A stretch of DNA of 64,000 nucleotides, from positions 20,736,001-20,800,000 of the forward strand of contig CP068257.2 in assembly GCA_009914755.4 (NCBI GenBank), written 5' to 3'. Below, piece by piece: positions 54,001 to 60,000 of the stretch. The position numbers are program-made. Source of the DNA: the human T2T-CHM13v2.0 reference genome, Homo sapiens. Numbering within the stretch: the stretch's first letter is position 1; each line of letters opens with the position of its first letter.

Positions 54001-57000
54001 AAAGTCTCTTTTCTGATCATGTGGGGTTTTCTTCTACTACCTATTGTTTATTGAATCTTCTTAACCATTTTATATCTACTCCTTTAATCATCAGAACCTA
54101 ATATTTTAATAATCCTTAGAATTAATTATTAAATATCATTATTATAATTTAGACAAGAGAGTTGGAAGAAATATATTAATTAACTTATTATCTGTGTGAC
54201 AGTGGGCAAGTGGTGGATAGGGAAGTCCAAGATTATGTTAGCTGGGCATGGTGGTGTGCACCTTTATTCCCAGCTACTCAGGAGGGAGAGGTGGGAGGAT
54301 CGCTTGAGCCTAGAAGGAGGAGGTTGCAGTGAGCCAAGATCACACCACTGCACTCCAGCTTGGATGACACAGCGAGATCCTATCTTTAAAAAGAAGAAAG
54401 TCAAAGATCATGTTTTAAATGTAATATATTGGCCCTGATCAACAAATTAATCACTTTGCTTTGTTCCTCCTTGGAAAGAAAATCTATAAAGAAGGTATCA
54501 ATTAGACAAGTTCCTTAAAGGATATTAAACCACTCCATCAAATTACAAATTCTCAGGAATAATCAGTTCCTCATAGAACTAGCTAATCAACTTTATTGAC
54601 TATTGAACTGAATTGACCAATTTAAATAGTTGATTTGGCTTCACATAAGTATATCTTTGAAGAGCAATAATAAAGCCCAGGTTTAATGGGAGAGGTGTCA
54701 AACTATATTAGGGCCAGATTTGGAAACTGACATATACACAGAGGTACATATACACATGATTTTCAAATTGACATTTTTGCCTTATTCTCCTGCTTAATAT
54801 TTCAATATTAATAATTAAAAAATGCATATTTAATGTAAGACTTTTACATTTTTGCATGCCTACAAGGTTGTTTTATAAAAATAACTGGCTGAATGAAAAA
54901 CCTTATGTCTGAGACCATTGATTTGGGCAATGGATAAGAAGACCTTGAGGACTTAGTGACAGGTAGTAAGTCTGACTTAGCAAAGAAAAGTAAAATATAA
55001 GGACTTCTAAAAACATAAAAAGCTTTATTAAATACTGTTGCCTAAAGAAAAACAAAGGGCTTTTGAAGAATTAAAGTTGGTTTTATTCAGAAGTCCTACT
55101 GAGGACTATAGACTGAGGCCTGCAGCCTGGAAATGTTACCGGAAAGGGGTCTCAATTCATACCCCAAGAGAGGGTTTGTGGATCTTACAAAAGGAAGAAT
55201 TCAGGGCGAATCCATAGAGTAAAGTGACAGATAGTTTATTAAGAAAGTAGAGGAATAAAATAATGGCTACTCCATAGACAGAGCAGCCCCGAGAGCTGCT
55301 GGTTGCCCATTTTTATGGTTATTTCTTGATTATATGCCAAGCAAGGGGTGGATTATTCATGCCTTCTTTTTTCAGACCATATAGGGTAACTTCCTGATGT
55401 GGCCATGGCATTTGTAAACTGTCATGGCGCTGGTGGGAGTGTAATAGTGAGGGCCACCAGAGGACACTCTCATCGCCATCTTGGTTTTGGTGGGTTTAGG
55501 CCAGCTTCTTTACTGCAACCTGTTGTCTTAGCAGGATCTTTATGACCTGTATCTGGTGCGGACCTCCTATCTTATTCTGTGACTTAGAATGCCTTAATCA
55601 TTTGAGAATGCAGCTCAGTAGGTCTCAGTCTCATTTTACCCAGCCCCTATTCAAGATGGAGTTGCTTTGGTTCAAATGCCTCTGACAGAACCAGCCCATT
55701 AGAGAGGTTCTTTTGGACTGCTCCTAGGCTGTAGGCCTCAGGAATAATTCTCAGGAAGACTTCCAGATAAAACTAGCTTTTTTTCTTTGCTTTGTTTTTG
55801 TGGGCCATGTTTTATTTGTCCTTTTTCCTCAAACAGGATAACAAAAGATACAGACTATTCAATACAATGAAATAGACAAAACAAATTCTAAGAGACTGTG
55901 ATACCACATGCTACATTTAATCTTATTTTATTCATGTTTGCCTTGGGATGGGGAATAGACCATTCAGTAAAAACATACAGTAAAATCAAAATGTCGTATC
56001 ATATACAACTTTTAAACTACAATAATGATGGACTTTAATTATTTCCACACACACAATTTTAACATTAGCTTTTTAAATAAACACAAGACTTCTAGGAGTA
56101 ATTTATAATAAAGTAATTCCTAATTTTTCTTTATAGATAAATTCCTATATACAGTGATTTCTTTATAGACAAATTCCTATATACAGTGATCGTTTACTTA
56201 AAATAAACACGTAAGTAAATTAAGTACATGGACATGCTTAAGATGAGCTAACATTATATATTCAGTTAGGTAGGCAACAAGCTGTAGTGCCAGATGGAGT
56301 AAGTGTATTTGCAAATAAATTTTAAAAACTAAGTTACTTTTTATAATTAAATACAGAAAATATACTGATTTGCTAAAATAAATAAGATGTGATATATTAA
56401 CACTTCACTATAAAGAATGCATACCAGAATATTCATAAACAGTAAATGAGTCTTATTAAGAATAGTTTACTAAAATAAATGCTGGCTAAATAGATGTGCA
56501 TATTGTGAAGCACTATGAGTGGTATATGTTTTGCCACATACTTCTGTTATCTTGAGCTAGATAACACATGTGTACTCAATTCAGCAGTCATTTTCAGTTG
56601 TTACTGGTATCATATGTTTTAAGAAATGTGTACAGTGTGAAAAACTTAAAAAATATTCATGAATAAAAAATGTTTTAGAAAAAATAGATATTTTCAGGCA
56701 ATTATGTAGAGTCTCACTGCGTAAATTTCAAGGTAAGATTTGTTTCCTATAAAACGGATCATTGTTCTACGAGAGGATGTTTTTTACTTGTCTTAGTGCA
56801 TTTCTTTTGCCTCCTCTAGCGTTGCATTATTTTGCTCTTTGCTTATTTTTGTGTGCAAACGACATGCCAGTTAAAATGAAAACTACCTCATATGTAGAAA
56901 ATAAGGTCTGGATTTTAAAAACCAAGAGCTAATCCTTACTAAATTACACCATCTGATTCAAGTAAAAAATGACTTAAACACTAGTGATAAAATAAAGGCA

Positions 57001-60000
57001 AAACACATTTCATGAAGAATGCAAAGATAAATGTTTGCTGAGTGCTTTAGTTCACATGTTTTAAAATGCTGCTGCAGGTTTTATGAGGAATTTGAGGGGA
57101 AGATTCCATAGCAGAAGGTGGTAATGTGGCCTGTATTGACTTAAGTAGTGACCCAACTGGACTGCGAAGCTGCAGGACGCCCACGGACTCGAGGTGCTTG
57201 CTAAAGAGGAACTCCAAACTGTTGTTCAGAAATCCTTCATTTCCTCTCTCCCCAAGCTTCCCATCCTCTACTAGCTCAGTTTCTAGTATTTCAGTATCTT
57301 CTTTCCTGTTAAATAACTTGTCTAAGTAACTAGTGTAAATGTCGTCCTCCTCAACTCCTTCACACTTCCTTACCTCACAACAAAACTAATTTGTGATAAA
57401 ATAGTTCTCCCCACCACTCACAAACTGGCTGTCCCAAGAAGATTGGTACAAGACTTCTAACTGAGCCAAATTTGCCATTCCTTTTTTCTGTTTTTCTTGG
57501 CTTACTGTCTTTGTTATCAAATTTTTCATTTCTAGTTGGGACCTTGACCTATTCGAGTTATTTCATTTCTCAACAACATCAGTAGGCTCATGTTGTGAAC
57601 TAGGTTGAGTAGTTTCTGCAATAAAGGAATCAAAATCAAACCCCTGATTTTTTTCCCTTTGTTTTTCAACCAGTTGCTGTGAGGCTTCCTCAAGCGCTAT
57701 CTGGGCTTTAACCAATCCATTCCTTTCACATTTTCACTTGCCTTTCTTATCAGATTTTTCTCTGCTTTATTCTTTCCGATTGGAAATATCTATAATAACC
57801 TTGGGTTCATAGTAATGGTTAACTTCACTCGCTCTCCAAACTAAGTTATCTAAATATGATGATGACCTGGCTTTGTAGTTACAAATATGACTACACTTCA
57901 AATCCCTATTTGTTTTTATGATGATCTGGGTACTGCCAAAAAGGCTCAGTAGAGCAATTGGATCCTCCAGATACTTTATGCTTTTCCGAATGTCCATCCA
58001 AATATTTTCAGGGATCAACTCGTACTTCTTCATCAGTGATATCAGACAGAGCTCTCAGGTCAAGCAGAACTTCATCAATACCAAAGTTGTTATGTATAGG
58101 CCAATCATGCACTGAAAACTAACAATCATACCTTTCCCAGTTATAAATGTGACTGTGAGTTTCATCCATAAGCAAAATATCATAAACTTCATCTTCAATA
58201 TGAAAAAGATGACTTGAAATTGGCTCATCCGTTGGAAAATAATATATGCTCATGTAATGATGGGAGAGCGCTTCTTCTGCTGTTAACCCATCTGTAGGGA
58301 TAAATGTCAAAATTTGTTCCAGGAGATCCAGTGCTTCTCAGCTAATTCCCTGAAGCAGCTGAGTTAAAGGTTTCTGTGGTTCAGTCATTTCATTTCTAAT
58401 GTAAACTGGAATTACACTGAGAAGCTCCTGATGATCTTCCTCATGTATAACAGGACTAGATTCTAAAATCAGCTGCATCTGTTCGAGTTCACGTGCACCT
58501 GCAAAAAGGGTTTTACCAGTCAGCATTTCAGCAAAGATGTGGCCTGCAGTCCACATGTCAATGGCTTTACTATAACTATTAGAAGAATGTAAAAGATGTG
58601 GAGATCTGTACCATTTAGTTACCAGTCCTTCAGAGAGATGATCCTTATGGGAATAATGAGGATCCATGATTTGTGCAAGACAAAAGTCCCCTATCTTCAG
58701 CATCATGTCTTCAGTATTAATGAAAAGATTAGTTGGTTTGAGATATCTGGGCAATACACTTGCAGAGTGAATACTTAAGCCACGTTAGCAGCTGATACAT
58801 GAAAAGTCTGGCATGCTTTTCCAGTAAAGGGCCCTCCTCCATCATATTAGCCAAGTCTGTCTCCATGTAATTCTGAAAAATGTAAATACTGTTAAGTTTG
58901 GTAAGAGAGTTCACATTGTTTGTTAATTGGCTTCCACTGGTACTAGGAATTTCAAACACTTTCACAATGTCACGATGTCAAATCTTCTAATAATTTTGAT
59001 TTCATGTAGAGCATTTTTGACACTCTGGGGATCAGTAAGGAGAATTTTCTTGATGGATTCTCTTTTATCACAGTCATCGTCTACAGCAGAAAAAAAAAGT
59101 TTTCCTTTTGAATTGTTGAACTTGTGTAAACAAGGAAGAAAACTGACATCAAAAGGAAAGATCTTTTATACAGGCAGAAGAAAAATAATTATGCTTCCAC
59201 AGCAAGATGATTTCTTGATGTTCATTGCATTTTCCAAACAGGCTTGTTCAGTTCCCCTTAGATATAAAGCTCAAAAAGCTCTACTCATATTGAGAATTTA
59301 AGAGATTGCAGTACTCATAGTTCAAGAAAGGGGCAGCAGCTCTGCAGACATTTAAATAAAACACTCAAGAAGCTCAAATGGAATGAAATTATGTACTATG
59401 CACCCAGATTTACTGTGATAAATGATTTAACATTTAACAAAAATATGAATAAATATGCACACAACGCAACAGGCTTCTGTGAACATTCTCCTCACAGTGC
59501 AGACACATTCAGTGTTGGACTGGCCCTGAGCAGCATTGTTCTAAGGTGCTGGTAAGCACTGTTTCCATTTTGTTTCTTTTCTTCCTTTGTTGCTATATAT
59601 TTCACCAGAAAGCCCTGGCGGCTGTTGGTTAACAGATGTCTTTTGTTAGTGATCAGGTGGCTCCGGCTCACCACAATCACAACCAAAGCTACTGTCCGTC
59701 TTACTCTGATCCAACGGGACTTCCACTCATCGAGAGGGTGTGGGCCCATGGACAGCCCCCAGCGTGGGCTCACGTCTCCAGCTGTACTGGCAGCAGCAGC
59801 TGCTTTGCCACAGTTGCTGCCATGCCAAACTCTATTTCCCTAAAAGTTTGACGTTTTCTTCAGTTGGCAATATTTATTTGAAAAGGAAGTGAAAGTGAAG
59901 TATTAAAATACAGTGAGAGATGTAATTCTCAAATGCCTCCCATGAACCAGCAGTATCAGCGTTACCCGGGAACTCAGTAATTTAAATGTTTGTGCCCCAT

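What the first reader, a model, noticed from the sequence alone, without database searches (positions are those of the whole stretch)
55777..59097. Retrocopy of the atypical MAP kinase MAPK6/ERK3: a processed pseudogene of about 3.3 kb
This is the only gene-derived sequence in the window.

- **Coding content.** Four minus-strand ORFs are co-linear pieces of one kinase. They carry the ERK3-specific S-E-G activation loop ('[14 protein letters not shown]') and the ERK3 C-terminal tail ('CNYKARSSSYLDNLVWRASEVNHYYEPKVIIDISNRKE').
- **Structure.** The kinase domain, C-terminal extension, stop codon, about 1.27 kb of 3' UTR, an AATAAA signal and an A-rich tail are contiguous with no introns. That is the signature of LINE-1-mediated retroposition.
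- **Disruptions.** Frame-disrupting changes are present, for example the kinase start reads '...[10 protein letters not shown]...' where ERK3 has RRLDHDNIVKVFEIL. The ORF track splits the kinase into four pieces.
- **Age.** Protein-level identity to ERK3 is roughly 85-90%, so the retrocopy is old.

It is a non-functional retrocopy rather than a gene. Several MAPK6 pseudogenes exist in the human genome, and I cannot tell from sequence which one this is.
Basis: partly seen in the sequence, partly recalled or inferred. Interest (0 to 1): 0.6.

Follow-up and report, generated by a model that had tools for sequence, protein, structure and literature searches.

The report
Old full-length MAPK6 (ERK3) processed pseudogene
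This is a dead, intron-less copy of the MAPK6/ERK3 kinase messenger RNA that was pasted into a gene-poor stretch of a primate genome roughly 50-60 million years ago and has decayed since; it is an ordinary feature of a well-known kind.

Summary
The boundaries and some numbers needed correcting.

- **Extent.** I rebuilt a gorilla MAPK6 mRNA from its genomic locus and aligned the window copy to it. The copy covers all six exons, with all five introns missing exactly at the exon junctions.
- **5' end.** It runs from window 59823, which matches the first base of the gorilla gene model.
- **3' end.** The parental AATAAA is at 55816-55811, followed by a decayed A-rich tail at 55794-55777. The element is about 4.05 kb, not 3.3 kb.
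- **Lesions.** Five frameshifting indels, seven premature stops, HRD changed to PRY and DFG to DFC.
- **Divergence.** 90.8% nucleotide and 80.2% amino-acid identity. Divergence is equal in UTRs and CDS (K2P about 0.10), dN/dS is 0.75, and 28 of 45 parental CpGs have decayed.
- **Age.** Diagnostic sites and a tree place the insertion on the anthropoid stem, before the split of New World and Old World monkeys.
- **Identity.** It is not MAPK6P4. No target-site duplication is recoverable.

Interest is low.

The parts
59716..59823 (-). Exon-1-derived 5' UTR. The 5' end of the retrocopy coincides with the first base of the gorilla MAPK6 gene model (L001 position 10001).
   Evidence: blastn and global alignment. 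Similarity to the sequence upstream of the gene-model start is lost beyond 59823.
58644..59715 (-). Exon-2-derived segment: about 600 nt of 5' UTR, the deletion scar, then the kinase N-lobe coding sequence from about codon 34.
   Evidence: The exon 1/2 junction at 59716|59715 is exact, with a 23,262-bp intron absent.
59099..59116 (-). Scar of an internal gap of about 115-120 nt that removed the last ~20 nt of 5' UTR, the initiator ATG and codons 1-33. The exact break cannot be aligned unambiguously.
   Evidence: (L001 33997 to 34119 missing).
58499..58643 (-). Exon-3-derived coding segment, containing the retained S-E-G activation-loop motif at 58634-58626.
   Evidence: Junction 58644|58643 is exact, with a 2,910-bp intron absent.
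58334..58498 (-). Exon-4-derived coding segment, ending in premature stop 1 (codon 287, CGA to TGA, at 58340-58338).
   Evidence: An 8,476-bp intron is absent.
58132..58333 (-). Exon-5-derived coding segment.
   Evidence: A 2,478-bp intron is absent.
57047..58131 (-). Coding part of the exon-6-derived segment (C34 region and C-terminal tail of ERK3). It carries frameshifts +7 (57984), -13 (57962) and -2 (57907), six premature stops, and the parental stop TAA at 57049-57047.
   Evidence: A 4,297-bp intron is absent at 58132|58131.
55795..57046 (-). 3' UTR-derived segment (about 1.25 kb), including the parental AATAAA at 55816-55811 and a 32-bp tandem duplication at 56126-56190.
   Evidence: (90.8% identity, K2P 0.099).
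55777..55794 (-). Decayed poly(A) tail remnant (CAAAGCAAAGAAAAAAAG) that starts where the parental mRNA is cleaved. Genomic flank follows.
   Evidence: The gorilla genomic sequence diverges completely beyond this point.
58338..58706 (-). Longest sense-strand ATG ORF left in the copy (122 aa, a fragment of the kinase C-lobe). DFG is mutated to DFC within the ORF (58688-58680); HRD is mutated to PRY just upstream of it (58751-58734).

Best explanation
The element is a full-length processed pseudogene (retrocopy) of MAPK6/ERK3 on the minus strand at 55777-59823.

A mature, spliced and polyadenylated MAPK6 mRNA was reverse-transcribed and inserted into an AT-rich, gene-poor region of a primate ancestor's germline. 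Use of the LINE-1 machinery is inferred. The copy arrived without the parental promoter. Since then it has drifted neutrally. It lost its start codon in an internal deletion, picked up five frameshifts and seven stop codons, and lost catalytic motifs. It encodes no ERK3-like kinase.

The insertion happened on the lineage leading to anthropoid primates, before New World and Old World monkeys split. My estimate is about 50-60 Myr ago, with wide error.
For: **Shown**
1. Parent identity. The best PDB matches are MAPK6 (E=1.5e-72). All top database homologues are MAPK6. Nucleotide homology includes both MAPK6 UTRs.
2. Processed structure. The gorilla locus L001 has six exons with GT-AG introns of 23.3, 2.9, 8.5, 2.5 and 4.3 kb, and the spliced CDS translates exactly to P0130. 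The window copy is collinear with that spliced mRNA, and all five junctions are exact.
3. Ends. The 5' end matches the gene-model start. The 3' end has the parental AATAAA, 16 nt, then an A-rich tail, after which the parental genomic sequence no longer matches.
4. Death. The ATG and codons 1-33 are missing. There are frameshifts of -1, -2, +7, -13 and -2, and seven premature stops. HRD is changed to PRY and DFG to DFC.
5. Neutral decay.
   - K2P is 0.094 in the 5' UTR, 0.101 in the CDS and 0.099 in the 3' UTR.
   - dN=0.092 against dS=0.122.
   - 28 of 45 parental CpGs are now TG/CA.
   - The copy's terminal branch is 0.096, against about 0.01 for the parental mRNA lineages.
6. Timing.
   - The copy groups with anthropoids at 99% bootstrap.
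   - It has 20 derived and 7 ancestral states at anthropoid-stem sites.
   - It has 0 of 9 catarrhine-specific and 1 of 20 Cebus-specific states.
   - It keeps a TTG codon that gorilla, colobus and Cebus have all lost.

**Inferred**
- LINE-1 mediation.
- Absolute dates, which rest on split times I took from general knowledge.
Against: - No target-site duplication is detectable. The best local alignment of the flanks scores below the mean of shuffled controls. The classic third hallmark of LINE-1 retroposition is therefore missing, although this is expected after about 10% divergence.
- The tail is short and impure.
- dN/dS of 0.75 is below 1. This is expected, because the comparison also includes the parent's own synonymous change.
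- Transcription or any RNA-level role was not testable.
Confidence: 0.96

Rival explanations
1. The copy is dead as a kinase but is transcribed and has a function. It could act as a regulatory RNA, for example as a decoy for microRNAs that target the MAPK6 UTRs. It could also encode a small peptide, as was reported for MAPK6P4.
For: A 122-aa ATG ORF survives in the kinase C-lobe region. It partly overlaps the region of the reported 135-aa MAPK6P4 peptide (PMC10584926). The parental UTRs are very conserved between species, so they probably carry regulatory sites that the copy partly retains.
Against: Divergence is the same in UTRs and CDS, and about 9 times faster than in the parent, so no part shows constraint. 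No parental promoter was copied. The ORF has DFG changed to DFC and, starting downstream of the N-lobe and the catalytic loop (where HRD is changed to PRY), lacks both. The copy is not MAPK6P4.
Confidence: 0.03
2. The locus is a secondary DNA-level duplicate (segmental duplication) of an older MAPK6 retrocopy located elsewhere, not a primary insertion site.
For: No target-site duplication was found. Several MAPK6 pseudogenes exist in primates.
Against: There is no excess of shared derived amino-acid changes with MAPK6P4 or with the retrocopy-like predicted proteins of macaque, chimp, Aotus or Saimiri: 0-5 identical changes, with co-changed sites near chance expectation. Homology to MAPK6 ends exactly at the mRNA ends.
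Confidence: 0.03
3. It is a functional retrogene or a genuine multi-exon paralogue such as MAPK4/ERK4.
For: A Pkinase domain is still detectable in the conceptual translation (E=9.3e-40).
Against: There are no introns and no ATG. Five frameshifts and seven stops are present, and catalytic motifs are lost. UTR-level nucleotide identity is to MAPK6 itself.
Confidence: 0.005

Closest known systems
Human MAPK6 processed pseudogenes (MAPK6PS1/P1 on chr8 near 53.5 Mb, MAPK6PS2/P2 at 21q21, and others up to P6)
   Same: Same parent gene and same kind of element. [quoted passage not shown] If the window is human, this copy is almost certainly one of them.
   Different: I could not establish which one, because no reference genome search is available here. 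The AT-rich, gene-poor setting would fit a gene desert such as 21q21, but that is only a guess.
MAPK6P4 (reported to encode a 135-aa peptide, P4-135aa, in glioblastoma; PMC10584926)
   Same: A retrocopy of the same mRNA, and it also includes 5' UTR sequence. One published shRNA target matches the window with a single mismatch.
   Different: The published MAPK6P4 ORF is 95.6% identical to the parent but only 87.9% identical to the window copy. In the window the equivalent ORF is broken by a 2-nt deletion at 58774. All four published oligos mismatch. MAPK6P4 is a much younger and separate insertion.
Parent gene MAPK6/ERK3 (gorilla locus L001, protein P0130)
   Same: Collinear over the whole mRNA: the S-E-G activation loop, the C34 region, the C-terminal tail, both UTRs and the poly(A) signal.
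   Different: The copy has no introns, no promoter and no start codon. It carries 12 disabling lesions and 9.2% nucleotide differences. It retains an ancestral Cys codon (FCCEVRK) that the anthropoid parent genes have since lost.

Membership tests
Processed pseudogene / LINE-1-type retrocopy | Collinear with the spliced parental mRNA, with every intron absent exactly at the exon junctions | tested here: met
   5 of 5 junctions are exact against gorilla locus L001, whose spliced CDS translates exactly to P0130.
Processed pseudogene / LINE-1-type retrocopy | Ends at the parental polyadenylation site with an A-rich tail not encoded in the parental genome | tested here: met
   AATAAA at 55816-55811, 16 nt, then CAAAGCAAAGAAAAAAAG. 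The gorilla genomic sequence diverges there.
Processed pseudogene / LINE-1-type retrocopy | No parental promoter or upstream sequence; homology starts at the transcript start | tested here: met
   Homology begins at 59823, which equals the first base of the gene model in L001. The 100 nt upstream do not align.
Processed pseudogene / LINE-1-type retrocopy | Flanking target-site duplications of about 7-20 bp | tested here: inconclusive
   The best flank alignment scores 7, against a shuffle mean of 8.0. Decay after about 10% divergence could have erased a duplication.
Processed pseudogene / LINE-1-type retrocopy | Disabling lesions and neutral substitution pattern | tested here: met
   ATG lost, 5 frameshifts, 7 stops. 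K2P is equal in UTRs and CDS, dN/dS is 0.75, and 28 of 45 CpGs have decayed.
MAPK6/ERK3 lineage (as opposed to MAPK4/ERK4 or classical MAPKs) | S-E-G activation loop, long C-terminal extension, and nucleotide-level identity including the UTRs | tested here: met
   SEG at 58634-58626. PDB best hits are MAPK6. All top homologues are MAPK6. The UTRs align at about 91%.
Catalytically competent protein kinase (Pfam Pkinase PF00069) | Intact ORF with the catalytic HRD Asp and the DFG motif | tested here: not met
   The domain is still recognisable (E=9.3e-40), but HRD is changed to PRY and DFG to DFC, there is no start codon, and the frame is broken.
MAPK6P4 locus | Near-identity to the published MAPK6P4 ORF and oligos | tested here: not met
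   87.9% identity to the ORF, and 1-3 mismatches in each of the 4 oligos.

The most novel reading that the evidence does not exclude
The most novel reading not excluded is that this old copy is transcribed from a nearby acquired promoter. It might then act through its retained MAPK6 UTR sequence as a microRNA or RNA-binding-protein decoy. Alternatively, the surviving 122-aa C-lobe ORF (58706-58338) might be translated into a peptide, as has been claimed for MAPK6P4.
Probability: 0.03. Interest if true: 0.35.

Novelty: already known. Interest (0 to 1): 0.1.

Why it matters
It matters little in itself, because processed pseudogenes of MAPK6 are a documented family. There are three practical points.

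1. Annotation. The element is about 4.05 kb and full-length, not a 3.3-kb 5'-truncated copy.
2. Cross-mapping. Copies like this can confound MAPK6 read mapping, primer design and shRNA design. One published MAPK6P4 shRNA target matches this copy with a single mismatch.
3. Dating. The copy is a dated molecular fossil of the MAPK6 mRNA in a stem anthropoid. It preserves an ancestral Cys codon that was later lost from the functional gene.

Tried and rejected
- **Target-site duplication.** The search of the flanks found nothing above shuffled controls.
- **Locus and species by exact ORF look-up.** The 138-aa window ORF is not on record. The orangutan isoform P0014 is not on record either.
- **Identity with MAPK6P4.** Rejected from the published ORF, primers and shRNA targets.
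- **Relatedness to other retrocopy-like predicted proteins.** Tested against macaque P0071, chimp P0081, Aotus P0050 and Saimiri P0114. There is no excess of shared derived changes.
- **Rfam scan of the whole window.** No hits.
- **Pfam scan of the other long ORFs.** Nothing above threshold. One sub-threshold GCM match in an Alu-containing ORF is treated as chance.
- **The original 2002 description of the MAPK6 pseudogene family.** Not found in the searchable library.
- **Microhomology at the internal deletion.** I looked for it by eye and found none that was convincing.
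Full report
**Observation**

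The quoted ERK3-like peptides are there. With a 60-aa cut-off there are four co-linear ORFs of 78, 138, 63 and 88 aa.

The 138-aa piece matches solved MAPK6 structures at E=1.5e-72. Every other MAP kinase scores near 1e-22. A conceptual translation retrieves only MAPK6 orthologues at the top of a search of 5.8 billion proteins, and it still carries a recognisable Pfam protein kinase domain (E=9.3e-40).

**Reference used**

I obtained the gorilla MAPK6 protein (P0130, 721 aa) and its genomic locus (L001, 64.3 kb). I defined six exons with five GT-AG introns of 23,262, 2,910, 8,476, 2,478 and 4,297 bp. The spliced coding sequence translates exactly to P0130.

**Anatomy**

blastn and a global alignment to this virtual mRNA show that the window copy is collinear with the entire mRNA. 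The five exon junctions fall at 59716|59715, 58644|58643, 58499|58498, 58334|58333 and 58132|58131. Nothing is inserted at any of them. That is direct proof of an mRNA origin.

It continues through about 600 nt of exon-2 5' UTR and about 108 nt of exon 1, up to 59823. That position corresponds to the first base of the gorilla gene model, and the 100 nt further upstream do not align. The copy is therefore full-length, about 4.05 kb, and not 5'-truncated.

The gap removed the end of the 5' UTR, the ATG and codons 1-33.

At the 3' end:
- The parental stop codon is at 57049-57047.
- It is followed by 1.25 kb of 3' UTR.
- The parental AATAAA is at 55816-55811.
- After 16 more nt comes an impure A-rich tail (55794-55777).
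- Beyond the tail the parental genomic sequence no longer matches.

**State of decay**

Nucleotide identity to the gorilla mRNA is 90.8% over 3,978 aligned positions. Kimura distances are the same in the three regions: 0.094 in the 5' UTR, 0.101 in the CDS and 0.099 in the 3' UTR.

Lesions in the parental frame:

| Lesion type | Detail |
|---|---|
| Loss of start | ATG and codons 1-33 missing |
| Frameshifting indels (5) | -1 at 58978, -2 at 58774, +7 at 57984, -13 at 57962, -2 at 57907 |
| Premature stops (7) | Codons 287, 361, 399, 482, 493, 550, 609; two are CGA to TGA |
| In-frame 3-nt indels (4) | Three deletions and one apparent insertion |

- dN is 0.092 and dS is 0.122, a ratio of 0.75.
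- 28 of 45 parental CpGs are now TpG or CpA.
- Catalytic motifs are damaged: HRD is changed to PRY and DFG to DFC. The S-E-G loop survives.
- The longest remaining ATG ORF is 122 aa.

All of this fits neutral drift since insertion.

**Age**

I fetched MAPK6 loci from colobus, capuchin, a horseshoe bat and a mouse, extracted the orthologous exons and aligned them with the copy.

The parental mRNA is strongly conserved even in its UTRs, with a gorilla-bat distance of 0.047. The copy's own branch is 0.096, about nine times longer than the parental primate branches.

| Evidence | Result |
|---|---|
| Bootstrap support for grouping with anthropoids | 99% |
| Position relative to the capuchin/catarrhine split | Unresolved (49%, 25% and 24% for the three arrangements) |
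| Anthropoid-stem sites (all three anthropoids differ from bat and mouse) | Copy derived at 20, ancestral at 7 |
| Catarrhine-specific changes carried | 0 of 9 |
| Capuchin-specific changes carried | 1 of 20 |

The copy also keeps a TTG (Cys) codon that bat and mouse have and all three anthropoids lack. That explains the apparent 3-nt "insertion" in the lesion table.

The mRNA was therefore copied on the stem lineage of anthropoids, about three quarters of the way along it in substitution terms, and before New World and Old World monkeys separated. Using split dates from general knowledge (about 90 and about 43 Myr), this suggests roughly 50-60 Myr, with wide uncertainty.

**Mechanism**

The architecture is that of LINE-1-mediated retroposition: a spliced, full-length copy with a poly(A) tail and no promoter, sitting in an AT-rich region (27-42% GC). 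This step is inferred. I could not recover a target-site duplication, because the best flank alignment is no better than shuffled controls. That is unsurprising at this age.

**Which locus and which species**

About 19 Alu-like elements in the window show it is a primate genome. The tools give no way to name the species or the chromosome.

The literature documents the family. MAPK6PS1 is on chromosome 8 near 53.5 Mb (PMC5948839). MAPK6PS2 is at 21q21 (PMC5834486). "Several MAPK6 pseudogenes" are noted in human and mouse (PMC3202601).

One member, MAPK6P4, has been reported to encode a 135-aa peptide (PMC10584926). Using the ORF, primer and shRNA sequences in that paper's supplement, I showed that the window copy is not MAPK6P4:
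- It is 87.9% identical to that ORF, while MAPK6P4 is 95.6% identical to the parent.
- The equivalent ORF is broken in the window.

The window copy also shares no excess of derived changes with retrocopy-like predicted proteins from macaque, chimp, Aotus or Saimiri. It is therefore an independent insertion.

**Rivals**

- A functional retrogene or a true paralogue is excluded by the lesions and the absence of introns.
- A DNA-level duplicate of another retrocopy is unlikely, given and the exact mRNA ends.
- A transcribed pseudogene with an RNA or peptide role cannot be excluded without expression data. There is no sign of constraint anywhere in the element.

**Verdict**

This is an ordinary, already-known kind of element. 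Interest is low.

Noticed in passing
window 56126-56190: A 32-bp unit is tandemly duplicated (2 copies, 96% match) inside the 3' UTR-derived part of the copy. The gorilla parent has a single, differently arranged sequence here, so the duplication arose after insertion.
   Followed up: partly
window ~60200-60500 and 18 other places (e.g. 4841-5127, 26738-27025, 48780-49065): There is an Alu element about 380 bp upstream of the copy's 5' end, and about 19 Alu-like hits across the window. This shows a primate genome. Subfamilies were not classified, so the species remains unknown. No Alu has inserted into the retrocopy itself.
   Followed up: partly
L001-L005 (MAPK6 loci of gorilla, colobus, capuchin, bat, mouse): The functional MAPK6 mRNA is unusually conserved in its UTRs as well as its CDS. 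The gorilla-bat K2P is 0.047 over exons 2-6, including about 600 nt of 5' UTR and 1.25 kb of 3' UTR. This suggests dense regulatory constraint on the UTRs.
   Followed up: no
proteins P0071 (macaque, 570 aa), P0081 (chimp, 649 aa), P0050 (Aotus), P0114 (Saimiri): These public 'MAPK6' predicted proteins differ from the parent at 7-12% of otherwise invariant sites. The macaque and chimp ones, whose sequences I read, also have internal gaps. They look like conceptual translations of other MAPK6 retrocopies, and are probably annotation artefacts rather than real proteins.
   Followed up: partly
window 55234-55288: A 55-nt stretch about 500 bp downstream of (3' to) the copy's tail matches an intronic repeat in gorilla MAPK6 intron 1 (L001 24403-24457) at 92.7%. 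The surrounding 55230-55760 looks like an interspersed repeat, possibly LTR-like. It was not classified.
   Followed up: no
window 1-6000, 10000-16000, 48000-50000: There is strong positive AT skew on the + strand (up to 0.30) in very AT-rich sequence (GC 27-35%). This would fit sense-strand LINE-1 fragments.
   Followed up: no
window 59492-59749 (minus strand): An 85-aa ATG ORF lies within the 5' UTR-derived part of the copy. It was not compared with the parental 5' UTR, which itself begins with an ATG at the gene-model start. It is probably chance.
   Followed up: no
window 59533-59553 (minus strand): The published MAPK6P4 shRNA1 target (GCCAGCACCTTAGAACAATGC) matches this copy with one mismatch, but the parental gorilla mRNA with three. 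Reagents designed against one MAPK6 pseudogene may cross-react with others.
   Followed up: yes
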